Assembly: GCA_951406725.2 (NCBI GenBank)
Contig: OX597826.1
Span: 71,796,001 to 71,860,000, forward strand
Source: Octopus vulgaris
Lineage: Eukaryota
Reading direction: 5' to 3'
DNA length: 64,000 nt
A program made the position numbers and the translations under genes. Every line of letters begins with the position of its first letter. Within the stretch, counting starts at the first letter, position 1. The notes below the pieces were generated by a model. The model searched no databases. It was not told where the DNA came from and saw nothing but the letters and a program-made list of their open reading frames with translations. Positions 3,161-63,110 of the stretch are shown one piece after another.

Positions 3161-3896
3161 TCATAAAGTGACGCACCTTGACAAGGGCCAGTCTCACTCC
3201 CTAAACAATATATGACTTTGGAAAATTACTATTTTTAAATCTCACAACGTGACATATTCAGCGACAGTACTTTGTCTCATCATCATCGTTTACGTCCGCT
3301 TTCCATGCTAGCATGGGTTGGATGAATGACTGTGGGCTAGCGAACCAGGCTTCAATCTTGATCTGGCAGAGTTTCTACAGCTGGATGCCTTTCCTAACGC
3401 TGACCACTCCGAGAGTGTAGTGGGTGCTTTTACGTGCCACCGGCATGAGGCCAGTCAGGCGGTACTGGCAACGACCTTGCTCGAATCTTTTACACATGCC
3501 ACCAGCACAGGTGCCAGGGCTAAATTACAGCAACATTCATCCTAGACCGAGACTACCATGTTATGTTGGCAAACAATCTTTACTACACTATATGCCTTTG
3601 TTCAGAAGTAACTGGTCACCATCATTGGATGCAGATGAAGTTGAAAGAATTATATCAGAGTTTTCCTTCTAAATAGATGTCCTAAAGGATTCTACTCCCA
3701 GCTATTAGATGGCTGCTGATTCTAGTCTACTCTTTGACATATTAGTTTTAAGTTCTCTAAGCTATCCAATAAAAACCACTCTCCTTACAAAGCGGGATTC
3801 ATAGGGTTGGTGTTGTAGTCACCAACAGCCCCACTATGCTACAAGCTGTACTGGATGATGTCTTGCCGCTAGCACTAAGAGTAATCTCACACAAAC

Positions 3897-3927
<31 letters not shown>

Positions 3928-4337
3928 TTTGTGAGTGTATATATATATATATATAAGAGAGAATGGTGTCATTGAGACCCAAAGGTGTCAGGTAATGCTG
4001 AATAAGTGCTATAGACAGACCATAGTTAAGTTCCAGATTCGGTAATATTGCGAATAAAGGGTTCAACGTTGGTTCTATGTCAGTGTGTGTATATAAGAAT
4101 TTTTTGTCTAATAAGATAAAAAACCAAGGCTGTATAGATATTAGGCAGTGGTTCAGCATGGATGGAGTCAAATGACTGAAACAAATAAAAGATATATATA
4201 TATATATTTATGTTACTTGGAAACAGGTGAAAGCTGACAGCAAAAAGGGCATCATCTATAGAAATTTTAGCTCAACAAAAGCCATCTGACACATGCAAGC
4301 ATGGAAAAGTAAACATTAAAACAATGATAATGGCGAT

Positions 4338-12561: not shown

Positions 12562-13010
12562 TATTGCTCAGAACATTGACCTCCTGGAATCTGTCCAGAG
12601 ACGTGCAACCAAACGCATACCCTCTATCAGACACCTACCATATTCTGAGCGCCTTGTTTCCCTGGGCATGGATTCACTGAAGCTCCAGCATCTGGCGACG
12701 GACTTGGTAAACACCCACAAAGTTATCAACCACCTCACCAACAACAACACTGAACACCTTTTTGATCTCCATGTGTCTAACACACGTGGACATGCCTACA
12801 AAGTCAGAAAACAACACAGCTCCCATGACTTTCGGAAACATTTTTTCACGCTCAGAGTTGCTGAAGCATGGAATAAACTGCCTGCGTCAGTTGTTGACTG
12901 CCATTACACTGCATCCTTTAAGGCCCTCATGCTTTCCGAAATCCGCCGAAACTACACCTGGTTATATATACACTTTAGATGAGTTGTAGTGCACCTGAGC
13001 ATTGTACACA

Positions 13011-13040
<30 letters not shown>
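12562..13040 (+). mobile_element. CR1-clade LINE 3' end (5'-truncated)
   Basis: LLESVQRRATKRIPSIRHLPYSERL...TRGHAYKVRKQ...RKHFFTLRVAEAWNKLP, then (ATT)n tail. Confidence 0.92.
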
Positions 13041-13045
<5 letters not shown>

Positions 13046-13703: not shown

Positions 13704-13895
13704 AAGGCAGTGAGCTGGCAGAATCATTAGCATGCCAGGCAAAACGCTTAGCAGCATTTCATCTGTCTTTACATTATGAGTTCAAATTCTGCCGAGGTTC
13801 ACTTTGCCTTTCAACCTAACGGGGTCGATAAATTAAGTACCAGTGAAACACTGGGGTTGATGTAATTGACAAGTCCCCACCCCTCCAAAATTTCA
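13704..13895 (+). mobile_element. SINE family C; other copies ~21956-22147(-), 22716-22940(-), 36707-36920, 39215-39380(-), 46200-46390
   Basis: aaggcagtgagctggcagaatc...gagttcaaattc...actttgcctttca...ggggtcgataaattaagtaccag core. Confidence 0.85.
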
Positions 13896-13896
13896 A

Positions 13897-14397
13897 GAGA
13901 ATACCCTCCATCAGGCATTTGCCATATTCTGAACTCCTTACTTCCCTGGGCATGGATACATTGAAACTCTGACGTCTGGCAGCTGACTTGGCAGACACCC
14001 ATAAAATTATTAACCATCTTACAAACAATAACTCTGAGCACCTTTTCAAACTCCACCCATCTAGCACCCGTGGACATGATTACAAAGTCAGAAAACAGCA
14101 CAGCTCCCATGACTTTCGGAAACATTTTTTCACGCTAAGAGTTGCTGAAGCATGTAACAAACTGCCGGCATCAGTTGTTAGTAGTCAGAGCATTGCATCT
14201 TTCAAAACTTCTATGCTTCCTGAGATTCGCCAACACTACACCTGATTTCCTCTCCTCCATACACACACAAGCATGTATTTGACTCATACACTGCTCACTT
14301 CCCAGACATTTGTACATTACTGCATATGCTTTATACGCACTTTTGACAAGTTGTGGTGCACCTGAGCACTGTATACAATAATTTCATTATTATTATT
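13897..14397 (+). mobile_element. CR1-clade LINE 3' end, second copy
   Basis: Paralogous to 12562-13040; HKIINHLTNNNSEHLF...TRGHDYKVRKQ, longer 3' UTR, (ATT)n tail. Confidence 0.92.
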
Positions 14398-14799
14398 TAA
14401 TACATATTATATTGACACAGGAGTGGCTGTGTGGTTGGTAGCTTGTATACCAACCACATGGTTCCAGGTTCAGTCCCACTGCGTGGTACCTTGAACAAGT
14501 GTCTTCTACTATAGCCTAGGGCTGACCAAAGCCATGTGAGTGGATTTCGTAGACGGAAACTGAATGAAGCCCATCGTATATATAAATATATATATATATA
14601 TATGTGTGTATGTATGTCTGTGTTTCTCCCGCCACTATTACTTGACAACTGATGTTGGTGTGTTTACGTCCCCGTTCAGCAAAAGAACCGATAAAATAAC
14701 TTTTAGGTTTACAAAGAATAAGGGCTCCGGTCGATTTGCTTGACTAAAGGCGGTGCTCCAGCATGGCAACTGTCAAATGACAGAAACAAATAATAGAAT

Positions 14800-20899: not shown

Positions 20900-23460
20900 T
20901 TGCTTTTTGCTTTTTGAGCCAAATTAACTAACTAACTAACATTTGATTCTTGCATGCTTTATCGGATTCCCCTGACACCCATTTTTCTCTCAGCTCATTT
21001 GTACACCGTCATTGCAGCACAGACTCACAGCAGTTTTTCAAGCGTTTGCACACAACTTATGCTTCCATGGCTCACATCTTGTGACCCTGCAGCATTGCAT
21101 TTTGCATCATATGTTTTAATCTTCACTCTCAGAGAGAAACCCTTTATTACCAGTAGAGGTAACAACTCTTTGAATTCCCCTATTCTGCTTTCAGTTCCAC
21201 TATATCACATGTGTATCTACAGTTTACATTAGATATATCATATGGAATTTCTATCTATTCCCTTATTTTACATATTGATCATGGCCATTTCACTGATGGT
21301 AGCAGGGTCCTGTCTTCTTTCCTACTTATAGCCACCTTTGTTTTTTGCTTAGTTTACTTTGAGGTCTTTCGATTCTAAGTGTTGATTTCATGTCTGGAAT
21401 TTCTTCTCTAAATCTTCAGCTATGAGAACTAGGTCACCAGCATGCAAGAGTTCCTACAGACAACTGGAAGATGGCTTTGGTAGTACTTTTACCTGGCATA
21501 AAGCCAAAGCACTTCTCATCCAAGCTAATTCTGGTCCTAAGCAATTGTGCTTTTGCTCTTTCCACAGCTTCCAGAACTTGGTCTAATAATGACTGGATGT
21601 TGCAGTAGTTACCTTCCCCAAGTACATTGCATATAATCTTGTTGCTGTTGATGATGGTAGTGTTATGCTAGTCATTGGGTATGATACATTCCTGTACCAC
21701 CTGATTGATTTTGTGAGTGACCTACTTCCCCAGATGTTTTCAGCATTTCACTGACTCTGTATGATCATCCAATTGTATCCCCTGCCTTCCTAAACTGGGC
21801 TTGCAACCAGACTATTGTCAATTTCAGTGGCTGATTCTTTTGTTGGGTCTATTTCAGGTACAACCTCTGTTTCCTATGCAGTCTCTCCTCACAAAAACAT
21901 TTCATAATAGCATTTCCTTTTAGTACAGTGAGGGCAAGTGTGCTGTTAACCTTCTTATTTCTTTATTGCTCACAAGGGGCTAAATATAGAGGGGGACAAA
22001 CAAGGACAGACAAAGGGATTGAGTCGATTAGATCGACCCCAGTGCGTAACTAGTACTTAATTTATCGACCCCGAAAGGGATGAAAGGCAAAGTCAATCTT
22101 GGCGAAATTTGAACTCAGAACATAACGGCAGATGAAATACCGCTAAGGGCAAATGTGCTGTTAATCTTCTATCCACACTTCTCCCTAATGACATCTGGAT
22201 TTTCTTTCACATGCAACCTTGCAATCCAGAATATTCCACTCTTCTGATCTTCATATTACCAAACAGATGCAAGCCTTTTACTTTCAGCTTCTCCTTTTAC
22301 TAAATATACTTGACCTGTAGCTTCTCTTCTAGATATATACTTTGCTCTTTCCTATGCATTTTTTTTTTCAGGTTTGTCTCTTAACTTTTGACTCTGTCTA
22401 CAGTGTTGCACTGTTACCTTCTCTTTGGCCTCTGATCCTATCCATAGCCTTTGGCAGATTGTCTTACAAGAACTACCAGTTGTTCTCAATGTCTCCATCT
22501 ACTTTTCCTTTTTATTTTCATCTTTTAGTTAGTAAAGAAGGCAGTATCTATGAGGTTACTGTAGGGCCTGTGAGACTGGATGGAGGGAGGGAGAGAGGGA
22601 GGGAAGGAAGCATTCTCAAAGCAGGAACCTGGCCTGAAAGCTTGCCATAGAAAGGATTCTGTTAAAGGCACCTAAGATGTGCAGGTACCAGGTGGTGGTA
22701 TTAGACCAGGTGACAAGTCTACCACCCAAGTAAGCTACAGCAGGATTTGAACTCAGAATGCAAAGTACTGGCACAAATATTGCAACCCATTCAATCTGAT
22801 ATTCTTTGAGCCCCACTAATTCAATTCCTGGTTTTTTATCGAATCCAAAAGGAATGAAAGGCAAAGTTAACCTTAGTGGGATTTGAACTCAGAACATTTT
22901 GAGTCAGAATAAATGCCACAAAGTGTTCTATCTGAATCTCTAATGATATTTCCAATGCACTAATTATTATTTCTTTGAACTTGCAACTCATAGCTGTCCC
23001 CTTTCAGCTTCCATACTTTCTTTCATCAGATTGTCTTGTGTCTTTAAGTCTGCCTAGCTCTTACCTGAAAAATCCCTGACTACTATTCTATCTTGTTCGC
23101 TGGTAGATTATTCACCAGGAAGAGATTTAGTATTCCCGATTGTTCCATTTCTTGGTGAGTATATAGCTTATCTAGCCTGTCTGTTCACCTGATTGGTCTG
23201 TGATTAAGTGTCTTGCTGGTTTCCTGAAATTTACACCAGTGAACAGTAAGAACCAAGTTCGCCCTACATATTCTGTACTATAAGGATAGCTTTTATGTGT
23301 GTCAGGGAATCCATCATGTTGTAGCTCAGCATTTCCATTAAAATTGCCAATTCTGATAATGAAGCCATTATCATTCGTAAGCAAAGTAGCCTACAAAACG
23401 ATCTTCTAAAAATCAGTATTTCTCTTCATCTGACAGACTGTTGTACAGAGACACAGACAA
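20900..23460 (-). mobile_element. Heavily decayed, interrupted RTE LINE (APE to RT pieces)
   Basis: 23172-23384 IIRIGNFNGN...NFRKPARHLITDQSG; RT-like LLHAGDLVLIAE near 21415-21455; SINE insertions within. Confidence 0.6.
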
Positions 23461-42529: not shown

Positions 42530-44815
42530 TGTCGGTCCTTTGTCCCCTCTGTGAGGCTCAACATCTTGAGGTCAGCCTTTGCTATTTCATTTTGATGCCT
42601 TCCTCAGTCCCCACCTTCCCACAAATTCCATCCACTTTAAGCAATTAACACTTCTTTATACAGTTGTCATCATTGTTACACGTCACATGACCATACCAGT
42701 GCAGCTGTCTCTCCTGCACATTACACCTGATTCCTCTTATGCCCAGTTATTCTCTTTATACATTCGCACAGTGGCATACAAGCACACTCATGTTGCACAT
42801 TCATAGGAGCAGACTAGTTTAATTCGTTTCTAATCTTTTCATGTCCTCTGCATTCAGGGTCCATGGCTCACTAACGTGTAACATTGCTCTTTATACAGAA
42901 GCATTGTAGGACCCATCTTTCACTCAAAGAGAGACAGAAATTTTTTGTTACCAGCGTAGATAATAATAGCTCCTTGAACTTCCACCATCCTATTTCTTAT
43001 TCTAGCAACTAATACTTTCGGAACATCCTCCTCCACTACAAATTAGGTCACCTAGATAACAGAAACTATCTACTTCCTCTAGAGAACCTCTTAGACATTT
43101 GAGAGAATCTATTTCCCGAGTGCACTTAATGCTTATTGTCATGGCACATTTGCCGCATGCAGAATTTACTTTATCTATTAACCGTCCTGCAATTCTACTG
43201 TGTCTCTTGTGTGTCCATGGCTTGCACTGGGCTCATTCTATGAAATTTCTACCAACACTTTTGCTTCCAACTGAGCAGAGTCTTTTTTTCTGAAGAGAGT
43301 AAAGTCCAATCTGTTTTCTTGCTTTCTAGAACTTCCCCTTTTACTAAGTTAACTTTAAGAGTCTTTGATTCCAGGTCTTGAATCATCCACACCTGGAATT
43401 TCTCTAGTTCTACTACAGACTCCACAATAAAAATGAATATTTCCTGAGGGCAACTATACATACTTATATATATATATATATTAGGATATGGCTTAATCAT
43501 ACGTACAATCTGTATCAAGTTGTACAGGAAGATGTCATACCCAACAACTGGCATAGCAGTATTATAGTCAAATTATAGTTACAAGGGTAAAGGAAATGCC
43601 TTGGATGGTCGCAATTATAGAGATATTAAAATGCTGGATCAGGTCATAAAAGTTATGGAGTTATATAATCCAATCAGTTATGAGGAGAATTAATCCAGAT
43701 GAGATGTAGTTTAATTTTGTGTCAAGGAGAAGTACTTTTTTATGACCTTGAGGTCCATAAGGGTTAGAGGGGACAGACAACTGAGCTCTGGTAAACTTCT
43801 ACCTGCACACTAAACTTGCTGCTGTATTTGTTACTAACTCTCATTATTCTGATAGTACCCCTGTACATGGCTCTCACAAGCCATCCATTTACTCTTAGCT
43901 TCTTCAGAAACCACCGGGTTATAGAGAAAGGGATTTGACAAAAACCAAGTATCGTAAATCCTTGAGTATAATCCACATTTTTTTTCCTAAAATTTAAAGG
44001 TCAAAATCCCTAGTGTGTACTATATATGAGGTTAAAAATGAATAATATTTTCTAAGCAATGTCCGAGTCTCTATTTTTGCTGTCCGGCAATGTTTATTCA
44101 GAGGCATTTTGTGATGTTGGGCACGAAAATACCTTAAGCTAAGCCTGAAAGCAATGAAGTCATAAAAGAATCATCCATAACTTGCAGTAAGCAACATTTA
44201 TTAAACATTTATTATTACTGTTATTTCTTTATTTTCTGAAAACAAAATGCACAAAAAAGCTACATGTTTGCATTATGTTATATATACAATAATAATAAAG
44301 GATGTTACCATATAGAGTTTTACAAACCAAGGACGTTATATAGACCTCCTTGACTCAAGTTCGAGAAGGGGTGCATATTATACACAAAGTTTAGGTTTTT
44401 CAGAGGTACAGTCCCCTAAAATCCCCTGCGTATTATACTCAAGGACAGACTATACTTGAAGATTTACAGTAAAAATTGCTTGCTTTTCACTAAACACTTC
44501 TCCCCCAGTCATAGTACTTCTCCTTGACACATAATTAAACTACATCTCATCTAGATTAATTATCCTCATAACTGATTGGATTATAACTCCATAACTTTTA
44601 TGACCTGATCCAGCATTTTATCTCTATAATTGCGACCATCCAAGGCATTTCCTTTATCCTTGTAAATATAATTTGACTAGAATGCTGCTGTGCCAGTTGC
44701 TGGGTATGACATCTTCCTATACAACTTGATACAGATTGTACGTATGATTAGGCCGTATCCTACTTCCCCAATTATTTTAAGTATGTCAGTGGTAATAAAA
44801 ATCAACTAGCTGGTC
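42530..44815 (-). mobile_element. Decayed RTE LINE RT region, rearranged
   Basis: IPSNWHSSIL..YKDKGNALDGRNYR..MLDQVIKVME; WFLKKLRVNGWLVRAMY..FSVQVEVYQSSV; contains a MITE and an inverted duplicate. Confidence 0.8.
43950..44471 (+). mobile_element. pogo/Tigger-like MITE, full length
   Basis: ta-tcgtaaatccttgagtata...tatacttgaagatttacag-ta with subterminal repeats. Confidence 0.85.
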
Positions 44816-45210
44816 TGTTTCAGAGAAATTTCAGGTTGGGCTCACGAATGGTTTCCTGAAATCCCTGGCCAAGCAGTGCTACAGGGAAAGGGGGATTGCC
44901 AGTTTGAGATAAACTCTACAGAGACAGAGGTATCATCAGCTGGGCCTCTCCAAGATGCATACAGAGCAATGAAGCCATTCTGCATGCACTTTTCTAATGC
45001 TCAACCATTGCTAACTTGTGGAGTTATGTCAATCAGTTATGTCAATCATCCTGTAGGATGAATCCCTCTATTTGCTGAGTCCATTGTGAAGATTGTCCTG
45101 CCATCTACTTTTGGCAGGGTTTTATCTGTCTGGTGGCTTTGATAAAAGAGATTGCGTGATGAACAAAACTGAAAGGGCTAAAGACAAGCTTGTTCCTCTA
45201 TGGTCAAGCT

Positions 45211-45626
45211 ATTTCTTTACTACCCACAAGGGGCTACACACAGAGAGGACAAACAAGGACAGCCAAATGGATTAAGTCGATTATATCGACCCCAGTGCAT
45301 AACTGGTACTTAATTTATCGACCCCGAAAGGATGAAAGGCAAAGTCGACCTTGGTGAAATTTGAACTCAGAACGTAACAGCAGATGAAATACCTATTTCT
45401 TTATTACCCACAAGGGGCTGAACATAGAGGGGACAAACATGGACAGACATAGGTATTAAGTCGATTATATCGACCCCAGTGCTTAACTGGTACTTAATTT
45501 ATTGACCCCGAAAGGATGAAAGGCAAAGTCGACCTCGGCGGAATTTGAACTCACAACGTAACAGCAGATGAAATACTGCTAAGCATTTCGCCCGGCGTGC
45601 TAACGTTTCTGCCAGCTCGCCGCCTT
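45211..45626 (-). mobile_element. Dimeric SINE family C
   Basis: Two tandem core/tail units (45211-45392, 45393-45626); head aaggcggcgagctggcagaaacgttagcacgccgggcg. Confidence 0.93.
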
Positions 45627-45629
45627 TTG

Positions 45630-45785
45630 CCTACTGACCTGTGCTCAACCGCCATTGGCAAGGAACCCTTCTCCACTTCGGTCTTTAAAGGTCTCGTTCG
45701 AATATTTGCTACTACCCCCGAGATCTGCACCTGCGGTCAGCTTCACCTGGGCTTGCGCCCGCAGCTTCCATACAAGCCACGGCCG
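45630..45785 (-). pseudogene. 28S (LSU) rRNA fragment, retroposed
   Basis: Minus strand gcaggtgcagatctcgggggtagtagcaaatattcgaacgagacctttaaagaccgaagtggagaagggttcc matches the conserved LSU core GGTGCAGATCTTGGTGGTAGTAGCAAATATTC...CCGAAGTGGAGAAGGGTTCC. Confidence 0.92.
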
Positions 45786-46489
45786 TCTATGGTCAAGCTG
45801 TCATCGACTTTTTCAAGTTTCTCTTGGAAAGGAAGATGAAGGTGGAAAGGGAAAATTCTACTTCCAAGCAAATTTGTTGAAAAGTGGATGAGAATGTTGA
45901 GCTTGGTCCAGCTGAACACGGCTGCTCTGAGCATGTAACTATCAAATGGAGAAGGACAGCAAGGAGAAATCATTGCTTGGGTGATCAGAGAGGTAGTGGC
46001 TCTGAGAGGTTTTCACAAGTGGTCCTTGGTATTATTCTCTTCCCCTTTCAGATAAATTTTCTTTGAACATTTTTTTCCTTTAATTTTGTTATTTCCCCTT
46101 CTTTTTTTTTATATACTTTTTATGTAATGCCATACTGTATCGTCCTGCACCATCCTCGTTCCTTTTAACAATACTGGACTTGATAAAGAAAAACATTACT
46201 ATTAGTATAGCATGCCGGACAAGGTGCTTGGTGACATTTCATGTAGCTTTATATTCTGAGTTCAAAGGATGCCAACACCAACTTAACCATTCTGCCTTTC
46301 AGAGTGGATAAAGTACCAATCGAGAACTGGGGGGTAGTGTAACTGACTAGCACCTTCCCCACAACATTTCAGGCCTTGTGCCTATAAGTAGAAAGAATTA
46401 TTATTATTATTATTATTTATGTGGGGGTGGGATTTATCTTTTGTGACATATAAAAAATTCCTTTTATCTTTCTCCTCCTCCACATCATT

Positions 46490-57292: not shown

Positions 57293-58110
57293 AGGCAACA
57301 AGCTTGCGGAATCGTTAGGTGGACAAAATGTTGCTAAACATTTCTGACAACTTTGTGTTCTGAGTTCAAATTCTATCATGGTTGACTTTACCTTTCATCT
57401 TTTCGGGGTTGATAAAACAAGTCCTTATCAAGCACTGGGGTTGAAGTTGACTAGCCTCCACCCCAAACATTTTTTCAGGCCTTGAGCCAATTGCAGAAAG
57501 AATATTAATTTACACTTAAAGGTGGTGAGATGGCAGAATTGTTAGCACGCCGGGCGAAATGCTTAGCGGTATTTCGTCTGCCGCTACCTTCTGAGTTCAA
57601 ATTCCACCAAGGTCGACTTTGCCTTTCATCCTTTCGGGGTCGATTAAATAAGTACCAGTTATGCACTGGGGTCAATATAATCGACTTAATCTGTTTGTCT
57701 GTCCTTGTTTGTCCTCTCTGTGTTTAGCCTCTTGTGGGTAGTAAAGAAATAGGTATTTCGTCTGCTGCTATGTTCTGAGTTCAAATTCTGCCGAGGTTGA
57801 CTTTGTCTTTCATCCTTTCAGGGTCGATTAAATAAGTACCAGTTACGCATTGGGGTCAATATAATCGACTTAATCCGTTTGCCTGTTCTTGTTTGTTCCC
57901 TCTGTGTGTAGCCCCTTGTGGGCAGTAAAGAAATGAGAACTGTTAGCACCCTGGACAAAATGCTTAGTGGCTTTTCTTCTGGCTTTGTGTTCTGGGTTCA
58001 AATTCTACCGAAGTTGACTAAAATAAGTCTCAGTCTAGCACTGAAGTCAATGTAATATGTAATCAACTCGCCTCTTCCTCATCAAACTTCAGGATTTGGG
58101 TCTATAATAG
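57293..58110 (+). mobile_element. Head-to-tail cluster of SINE family C units
   Basis: Four gagttcaaattc...gactt cores; a young dimer at 57519-57935. Confidence 0.9.
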
Positions 58111-62650: not shown

Positions 62651-62781
62651 CTTCCCTCCTCCCCATCTGCAACATGCAAGCGGTCAGCTGAATGATAACA
62701 CATGCCCTGCATATCCATTTTCCCACTGAGACAATCTGCCATGTAGCACACATGTGGTTGTGATGCACGTGCCTGGTGTAC

Positions 62782-63017
62782 CTATTTCTTTACTACCCAC
62801 AAGGGGCTAAACACAGAGGGGACAAACAAGGACAGACAAACAAATTAAATCGATTACATCGATCCTAGTGCGTAACTGGTACTTATTTAATCGACCCCGA
62901 AAGGATGAAAGACAAAGTCAACCTTGGCAGAATTTGAACTCAGAACGTAACGGCAGACGAAATACCGCGAAGCATTTCGCCCGGCATGCTAACGTTTCTG
63001 CCAGCTCGTCGCCTTAT
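62782..63017 (-). mobile_element. SINE family C monomer with 13-bp TSD
   Basis: TSD gtgcctggtgtac at 62769-62781 and 63018-63030. Confidence 0.93.
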
Positions 63018-63110
63018 GTGCCTGGTGTACTCTTACCAGACAGGTAGTCATGATGGGTATACTGGGCTTTGTATATTTCACCCCAGTGTCACTTTGATGG
63101 CATGCACTGC

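What the first reader, a model, noticed from the sequence alone, without database searches (positions are those of the whole stretch)
45197..45799. 28S rRNA-SINE chimera inserted as a single retroposition event
Seen: tctatggtcaagct occurs at 45197-45210 and 45786-45799. It brackets, on the minus strand, ~155 nt of 28S rRNA joined in the same orientation to the intact head of a dimeric SINE. Established: LINE RTs form chimeras by template switching (e.g. U6-L1), and 28S-derived SINEs exist. Inference: this is either a one-off template switch from SINE RNA to rRNA, or a member of an undescribed 28S-headed composite SINE.
Basis: partly seen in the sequence, partly recalled or inferred. Interest (0 to 1): 0.8.

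Follow-up and report, generated by a model that had tools for sequence, protein, structure and literature searches.

The report
One-off 28S rRNA-SINE chimeric retrocopy
A 575-base insert made of about 150 bases of ribosomal RNA sequence fused to a complete short jumping element sits between two identical 14-base repeats inside a dead LINE; it is likely an old, single by-product of a copying enzyme that switched RNA templates, a kind of fossil already known from mammals and fungi.

Summary
An exact 14-mer (45197-45210, 45786-45799) brackets, on the minus strand, 151-154 nt of 28S rRNA, a 3-6 nt linker and a full-length dimeric tRNA-like SINE. The insert splits a decayed zf-RVT LINE reading frame. 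Uninterrupted relatives carry the duplicated stretch once and run in frame from left to right flank, so the 14-mer is a true target-site duplication. Read-laying tables imply that contigs of a second species cross both 28S junctions. The piece differs from rDNA-like contigs at 14 or more sites, 11 of the 14 listed being CpG transitions: old neutral decay, not mis-assembly. Depth able to cross the 28S-SINE junction is at most single-copy in one relative and zero in another, which argues against a family with this breakpoint; the window's own genome could not be searched. Best reading: a LINE reverse transcriptase copied the SINE to its 5' end and jumped onto a 28S fragment, in one insertion. 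28S/L1 and RNA/SINE chimeras are published, so this is a new member of a known kind. One open point: the 28S piece ends 2-5 nt before D7a, the protostome hidden-break segment.

The parts
44794..45210 (+). Host element, left part: decayed 3' end of a LINE-type ORF with a zf-RVT zinc knuckle (stops and frameshifts)
   Evidence: phmmer 28 relatives, best P0003 E 6e-22; P0003 carries zf-RVT above Pfam cut-off; window itself zf-RVT E 0.0046, below cut-off; tblastn span
45197..45210 (.). Target-site duplication, copy at the element's 3' end; its two inner bases (45209-45210) also fit the SINE tail end
45211..45392 (-). SINE, second (headless) 184-nt unit with the 3' tail
   Evidence: 91% to first unit; 3.8% from the majority of 6 window units
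45393..45576 (-). SINE, first 184-nt unit (holds a B-box-like motif and the 3' arm of the terminal stem)
   Evidence: 6.0% from the window majority; B-box motif recalled
45577..45626 (-). SINE head, full length at the 5' end; with 45535-45576 it folds into a long stem closed by a 5-bp terminal helix (tRNA-like, not a callable tRNA)
   Evidence: 5' end table 7; fold z = -2.2, 6 of 200 shuffles as good; ARAGORN 0 genes
45627..45632 (-). Linker of 3-6 nt assigned to neither part (non-templated bases, or altered 28S)
   Evidence: against L001/L005; rDNA-like contigs stop aligning at 45633 in X8 and X14 (table 3)
45633..45783 (-). 28S rRNA fragment, Rfam LSU model positions about 1393-1540, ending just before expansion segment D7a; CpG-decayed
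   Evidence: holds the 5' hidden-break marker of PMC6925239 at 45677-45658 (17 of 20 letters)
45784..45785 (-). Two extra bases between the 28S piece and the duplication
   Evidence: rDNA-like contigs stop at 45783 in X8 and X14
45786..45799 (.). Target-site duplication, copy at the element's 5' end
45786..45932 (+). Host element, right part: continues the LINE frame, frameshift near 45855-45860
   Evidence: P0003 residues 307-331 at 64% (E 8e-7) and 317-357 in the next frame

Best explanation
It is a 28S rRNA fragment fused to a full-length dimeric SINE inside one 14-bp target-site duplication, likely made once when a LINE reverse transcriptase jumped from the SINE RNA to a 28S fragment during a single insertion. 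Steps: (1) a LINE enzyme nicked a site inside an already resident LINE copy (shown: host frame and duplication); (2) it primed on the SINE tail, probably helped by 2 shared bases (inferred); (3) it copied the dimeric SINE RNA to its first base (shown: 5' end intact); (4) it added a few non-templated bases and jumped to a 28S fragment ending just before D7a (inferred from the linker and the sense orientation); (5) it stopped after about 151 nt and was joined to the second, 14-nt staggered cut (inferred); (6) the copy has since decayed neutrally, mostly at CpG (shown), and predates the split from organism C (inferred). No function is implied.
For: One exact duplication around both parts and none around the SINE alone, while 2 other window copies of this SINE carry their own 13-nt and about 20-nt duplications. 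Empty-site test by paralogs: the first codon of the duplicated stretch is in frame on the left (45199) and recurs exactly 589 nt on; P0003 and P0004 align to both flanks in register; 6 of 28 relatives show the downstream motif and run through the site without a duplication, and in P0003, P0004, P0011, P0012 the spacing equals that of the emptied window. Organism C (run X6): distances to alignment ends of 47, 53, 62, 60, 53 at 45748-45779 fit one contig aligned 45702-45831 (28S, duplication, right flank); 46 and 39 at 45640 and 45647 fit one aligned from 45595 or lower to 45685 (SINE head into 28S) (table 3). Copy number at 45640: X8 depth not accounted for by contigs that stop within 8 letters is 5.1 against single-copy 6.5; X14 0 of 30 against 7.3. 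Decay: 11 of 14 listed differences are CpG transitions (binomial p 7e-5; about 28% of CpG sites against 3% of others); SINE units are 3.8% and 6.0% from the window majority, a similar age. Precedent: non-templated addition and template jumping shown for L1 ORF2p (PMC10830420, passages); 18 human 28S/L1 chimeras, 83% sense (PMC13174262 section 11).
Against: No empty orthologous allele was seen: organism E's flank contig stops aligning at 45833, 47 nt short of where an empty allele should stop (table 8). The two bridging contigs of X6 are deduced from a column of table 3 and are not among the 24 pieces printed; no piece spans the whole stretch. X6 cannot bound the copy number (19 contigs, depth 2,014, at least one crossing). 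The only raw-read run (X22) laid 55 reads and none on the junction. The tool warns that not all differences and joints were counted (869 joints unseen). The organism's own 28S sequence past 45633 was not seen, so the linker may be altered 28S; an AAG shared by the D7a start motif and the SINE head leaves a microhomology switch open. The partner LINE was not identified. Sequence alone cannot separate a template jump from prior RNA ligation.
Confidence: 0.72

Rival explanations
1. The two RNAs were ligated first (RtcB-type, as proposed for U6/L1) and the fused RNA was retroposed once.
For: Same orientation and one duplication fit equally well; PMC13174262 names ligation or switching for sense 28S chimeras. 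A cleaved rRNA end could be a ligase substrate (recalled chemistry).
Against: The SINE begins at its usual first base; a primary Pol III 5' end is not the 5'-OH that RtcB needs (recalled). A linker of unassigned bases fits non-templated addition better.
Confidence: 0.08
2. Two insertions at one spot: a tailless 28S retrocopy made the 14-bp duplication and a SINE later landed exactly at its 3' end (or the reverse order).
For: Tailless 5'-truncated 28S retrocopies exist (10 in human, PMC5322556 passages); SINE copies are dense here (about 10 hits in 64 kb). No intermediate or empty allele was observed either way.
Against: The SINE has no duplication of its own (longest shared word between the 80 nt upstream and the downstream flank 6 nt, not adjacent), whereas 2 other copies do; base-exact targeting of a junction is needed; both parts show similar non-CpG decay.
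Confidence: 0.07
3. It is one member of a 28S-headed composite SINE family that was itself mobile.
For: 28S-derived SINE28 exists (PMC4994717 passages); the window's own genome was not searchable; X6 has 19 contigs with the rDNA letter at 45640, an unknown number crossing.
Against: Crossing depth at most one copy in X8 and none in X14; 0 of 3 other headed window copies carry 28S and no second 28S piece lies in the window; the Pol III promoter would start at the SINE head, downstream of the 28S piece, so the piece would not be in the transcript (inference).
Confidence: 0.06
4. The 28S piece came from rDNA or a dispersed rDNA copy at DNA level, as filler while the SINE's 5' end was being joined.
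For: Filler DNA and jumps to DNA at 5' junctions are among the models listed in PMC2912911 (passages); rDNA is abundant (depth up to 558,000 against 52 in X6).
Against: Sense orientation matches the bias reported for RNA-derived 28S chimeras (83%); the end lies at a boundary of RNA structure; the duplication is exact with no deletion.
Confidence: 0.05
5. Assembly or library artefact joining rDNA to a SINE.
For: No single listed piece spans the whole stretch.
Against: The piece is at least 9% from rDNA with CpG-type decay; 7 of 24 listed runs hold half or more of the words, 0.94 and 0.78 in two studies; both junctions are deduced in another species; an artefact would not create an in-frame duplication in the host.
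Confidence: 0.02

Closest known systems
[quoted passage not shown]
   Same: 5' 28S fragment (50-482 nt, median 269) in sense to a 3' retroelement, inserted together; template switch or ligation proposed
   Different: 3' partner here is a full-length non-autonomous SINE, not a truncated L1; the fragment comes from just before D7a, whereas human pieces often start near nt 3,636; an invertebrate genome
Bipartite chimeric retrogenes with a SINE as 3' part: WEIRD-MgSINE of Magnaporthe grisea; B2-U6-L1 of mouse (PMC2104539; passages)
   Same: Cellular RNA fused 5' of a SINE within one 12-16 bp direct repeat, single copy, ascribed to LINE RT template switching
   Different: There the SINE is 5'-truncated and the 5' RNA is not rRNA; here the jump is at the very 5' end of an intact SINE
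SINE28 (PMC4994717; passages)
   Same: 28S-derived sequence retroposed with target-site duplications
   Different: SINE28 derives from the terminal ~500 nt of 28S, has a simple-repeat tail and 27 loci in human; this piece is mid-molecule, has a whole SINE behind it and appears single
Tailless 28S retropseudogenes (PMC5322556; passages)
   Same: 5'-truncated internal 28S fragment with flanking duplication; ends at defined structural positions
   Different: Those are primed directly on the rRNA; here priming was on the SINE tail

Membership tests
LINE-made bipartite chimeric retrocopy | Two unrelated RNA-derived parts directly fused | tested here: met
   28S 45783-45633 and SINE 45626-45211 with a 3-6 nt linker
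LINE-made bipartite chimeric retrocopy | Same orientation of both parts | tested here: met
   Both sense on the minus strand
LINE-made bipartite chimeric retrocopy | One target-site duplication around both parts, none around either alone | tested here: met
   14 bp exact; host frame carries it once in relatives
LINE-made bipartite chimeric retrocopy | 3' part is a LINE substrate with an intact 3' end | tested here: met
   Tail ends as in other copies, 2 of which have their own duplications; no poly(A); partner LINE unidentified
LINE-made bipartite chimeric retrocopy | Both parts absent together from an orthologous empty site | tested here: inconclusive
   Paralog (protein) test passed; organism E shows no junction but no clean empty allele either
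LINE-made bipartite chimeric retrocopy | Endonuclease motif at the insertion site | not tested
   Target preference of the mobilising LINE is unknown
28S-headed SINE family (SINE28-like or new composite) | Many dispersed copies sharing the same head and junction | tested here: not met
   At most one copy in X8, none in X14, none elsewhere in the window; unbounded in X6; own genome not held
28S-headed SINE family (SINE28-like or new composite) | Derived from the 3' terminal ~500 nt of 28S with a simple-repeat tail (SINE28) | tested here: not met
   Model positions about 1393-1540 of 3401; followed by a SINE, not a simple tail
28S-headed SINE family (SINE28-like or new composite) | Transcript that includes the 28S head | not testable with these tools
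   No RNA raw reads of the species were offered
Copy of the mature 28S-alpha 3' end (hidden break) | 3' end lies between the two marker 20-mers of the break region | tested here: met
   Ends 25-28 nt after the 5' marker; markers about 105 nt apart in molluscs (PMC6925239 passages)
Copy of the mature 28S-alpha 3' end (hidden break) | 3' end coincides with the cut, which maps inside D7a | tested here: not met
   Ends 2-5 nt before the motif that starts D7a (PMC12880105 passages), so it is short of the expected cut; the cut is not mapped here for this species

The most novel reading that the evidence does not exclude
The free 3' end that the protostome hidden break leaves on 28S-alpha, trimmed back to the base of D7a, is a recurrent landing site for jumping LINE reverse transcriptases. 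Protostome genomes would then hold a class of chimeric retrocopies whose 28S parts pile up just before D7a, a genomic fossil record of where and since when the break is made. One locus cannot show this; the end here lies in the ~105-nt marker interval (a few per cent of a 28S, noticed after the fact) but short of the loop itself.
Probability: 0.15. Interest if true: 0.55.

Novelty: new member of a known kind. Interest (0 to 1): 0.27.

Why it matters
As it stands it extends rRNA-capturing chimeric retroposition, catalogued in mammals and a fungus, to a SINE partner in what looks like an octopus genome (organism recalled from the repeat sequence, not shown by a call). It is a clean anatomical example of an end-to-end jump and of the raw material from which composite SINEs arise. 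It would matter more if such 28S ends cluster at the hidden break, because the break's mechanism is described as unclear (PMC6925239, introduction).

Tried and rejected
Exact scans for a 30-nt SINE word found 0 loci in viral contigs and 0 in genome contigs: these collections lack the organism, no evidence either way. Raw-read run X22 laid only 55 reads from 1,934 million letters although the SINE is very abundant in the other runs; uninformative. Word-indexed protein searches with both flanks found nothing; the full HMMER search did. The octopus-specific H88 break (PMC13321053; first sixth of the text, passages and supplement passages) was considered as source of the 3' end and rejected: it lies at nt 4322, far downstream of this piece. 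L001, L005 and L006 all end at model positions 1546-1551, a few bases past the piece's end; tempting as support for an RNA end there, but I do not know whether they come from RNA or DNA, L001 runs upstream of the 28S start, and assemblies also break at the edge of a variable segment, so I give it no weight. High-depth contigs over 45805-45831 did not visibly extend through the 14-mer, so they gave no DNA-level empty site. The read-laying covered 45400-46200 only, so an empty allele could not appear as a joint. The SINE family could not be named: a recalled name gave 0 papers; OK/OR1/OR2 (named in a reference seen; OK and OR1 recalled) were not compared. The host's clade label L1/Tx1 is recalled, not tested by a tree. 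Supplements of PMC6925239 held none of 6 cephalopod names, so the hidden break in this group rests on a review statement (PMC10755191) and a figure legend (PMC13321053). Small word shares of runs X14-X21 and X24 were not used as evidence, except X14, which was laid.

Full report
Observation. The 14-mer is exact at 45197-45210 and 45786-45799 and occurs only there in the window. Read on the minus strand, the 575 nt between the copies are: 2 extra bases (45785-45784), a 28S rRNA piece (45783-45633, to 45630 with one mismatch), a linker of 3-6 nt, a SINE head starting at 45626, and two 184-nt units of 91% identity. Rfam places the piece at about positions 1393-1540 of the eukaryotic LSU model (E 0.00029, under the gathering score). 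Two fetched 28S contigs match it at 86% over 154 nt; the other 4 of 6 loci match 104-108 nt at 81-83%. It is the only 28S match in the window.

The SINE. About ten stretches of the window match it. A second dimer without 28S lies at 57518-57934, a monomer with a 13-nt duplication at 62779-63018 and a 5'-truncated copy with a duplication of about 20 nt at 21956-22147; no duplication was found for 57518, 13704, 36708 or 39258. The focal head starts where other heads start and where thousands of contigs per run stop matching (table 7), so it is full length. Dimers are common: 312 contigs in X8 continue at 45576 with the tail of a further unit. The head folds into a long stem (z -2.2) but is no callable tRNA. 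That the genome is an octopus's is my recall of this repeat, not a tool result, and I could not name the family.

The target site. The flanks are the decayed 3' end of a LINE-type ORF on the plus strand. The left flank, read with X at stops, has 28 relatives (best E 6e-22); 2 of 9 scanned carry zf-RVT above the Pfam cut-off and a third below it. The best relative aligns to the left flank up to the duplication and to the right flank from it (64% over 25 residues, E 8e-7), then on through a frameshift. The duplicated codons are in frame and 589 nt apart. Six of the 28 relatives show the downstream motif and pass through the site without a duplication; the others end earlier or have diverged. This is an empty-site test by paralogs: the 14-mer is a real target-site duplication and everything between the copies entered at one site.

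Other genomes. Seven of 24 listed runs hold half or more of the words of 44700-46300; the best may be the window's own source. I laid four runs on 45400-46200 at 80%. X22 was uninformative. In the three contig sets the column 'from_end' behaves as the distance to the end of the aligned part (checked on records 8 and 16 of table 8). In X6 (organism C) the values fit one contig aligned over 45702-45831, crossing 28S, duplication and right flank, and one aligned from 45595 or lower to 45685, crossing from the SINE head into 28S; both keep the rDNA letter at positions where the window has changed. These contigs are deduced, not printed. In X8 and X14 the rDNA-like contigs stop at 45633 and 45783, which fixes the borders. 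At 45640 the depth left for a crossing contig is 5.1 in X8 (single copy 6.5) and 0 in X14 (single copy 7.3). X6 gives no bound. Organism E's flank contig aligns over 45833-46192 and runs on for 171 unaligned letters towards the insertion; this hints that E lacks the insert but is no clean empty allele. The tool warns that counts are incomplete, and chimeras with other breakpoints would be hidden among 869 unprinted joints.

Age. The printed rows list 14 sites where rDNA-like contigs differ from the piece; L001 agrees with the contigs at all 14; 11 are CpG transitions. Seventy-two rows were not printed, so 14 is a minimum, and L001 differs at 7 more sites that may be species differences. Non-CpG change is about 3%, close to the 3.8% and 6.0% of the SINE units from the window majority. 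The insert is an old, decaying copy and not rDNA pasted in by an assembler.

Mechanism. Shown: single duplication, intact SINE ends, same orientation, short unassigned bases at both 28S borders, neutral decay. Inferred: target-primed reverse transcription from the SINE tail, non-templated addition at the SINE's 5' end, a jump to a 28S fragment, truncation after about 151 nt and joining to a cut 14 nt away. L1 ORF2p does non-templated addition and template jumping in vitro (PMC10830420, passages). RNA ligation, two stacked insertions, a mobile family and DNA filler remain as minor rivals.

The 28S end. The piece contains the 5' marker of the protostome hidden-break region and ends 25-28 nt after it (PMC6925239, passages), 2-5 nt before the motif that opens D7a (PMC12880105, passages). 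The cut itself maps inside D7a, so the piece is short of the mature 28S-alpha end. A trimmed 28S-alpha end is a plausible acceptor, but this is one locus, noticed after the fact, and the species' cut is unmapped. The octopus H88 break lies elsewhere.

Known relatives and novelty. Human genomes hold 18 28S/L1 chimeras, 83% in sense (PMC13174262, section 11); RNA-SINE chimeras within one repeat are described in a fungus (PMC2104539, passages); SINE28 comes from the 3' end of 28S and differs (PMC4994717, passages). I found no paper on a cephalopod case: 0 papers held all of cephalopod, SINE, 28S, chimera and target site duplication, and none of the 7 listed names one in its title or abstract start; subscription journals and Repbase were not searched, and the supplementary tables of PMC13174262 were not read. 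Earlier notes of this scan report similar rRNA-SINE and rRNA-LINE fusions in other genomes; these are unchecked leads. Verdict: real, most likely single and ordinary in kind; interest 0.27.

Noticed in passing
window 44794-45932 (+): The insertion's host is a decayed LINE ORF end with a zf-RVT knuckle; it also has a 13-bp tandem duplication at 45022-45047 at a frameshift. Depth over 45805-45831 in X6 is 212,670 against 52 for single copy, so this stretch matches something very abundant.
   Followed up: partly
L001 end, L005 end, L006 end: Three independent 28S contigs all end at LSU model positions 1546-1551, at the start of D7a; could be the hidden break or an assembly break at a variable segment.
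   Followed up: partly
window 57518-58019 (+): A second dimeric copy of the same SINE without 28S, followed directly by a decayed head of an older copy; the two dimers share only 1 unit-specific column, so dimers may arise repeatedly.
   Followed up: partly
window 45457-45459 (table 7): 1,000-2,500 contigs per run leave the SINE here for a different, G-rich-complement tail: a second subfamily sharing head and core; window copies at 13704 and 36708 appear to be of that type.
   Followed up: no
window 43482-43736 and 44513-44762: Inverted pair of 255 nt at 93% identity, 776 nt apart, just left of the host LINE; possibly a MITE or DNA-transposon remnant.
   Followed up: no
window 12617-13044 and 13901-14412: Direct duplication of about 430 nt at 80% identity, 1,284 nt apart, with a SINE copy (13704-13870) between them.
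   Followed up: no
run X22: A raw run with the same species label as the best holder laid almost no SINE reads, unlike the three contig sets; filtering or a label problem.
   Followed up: no
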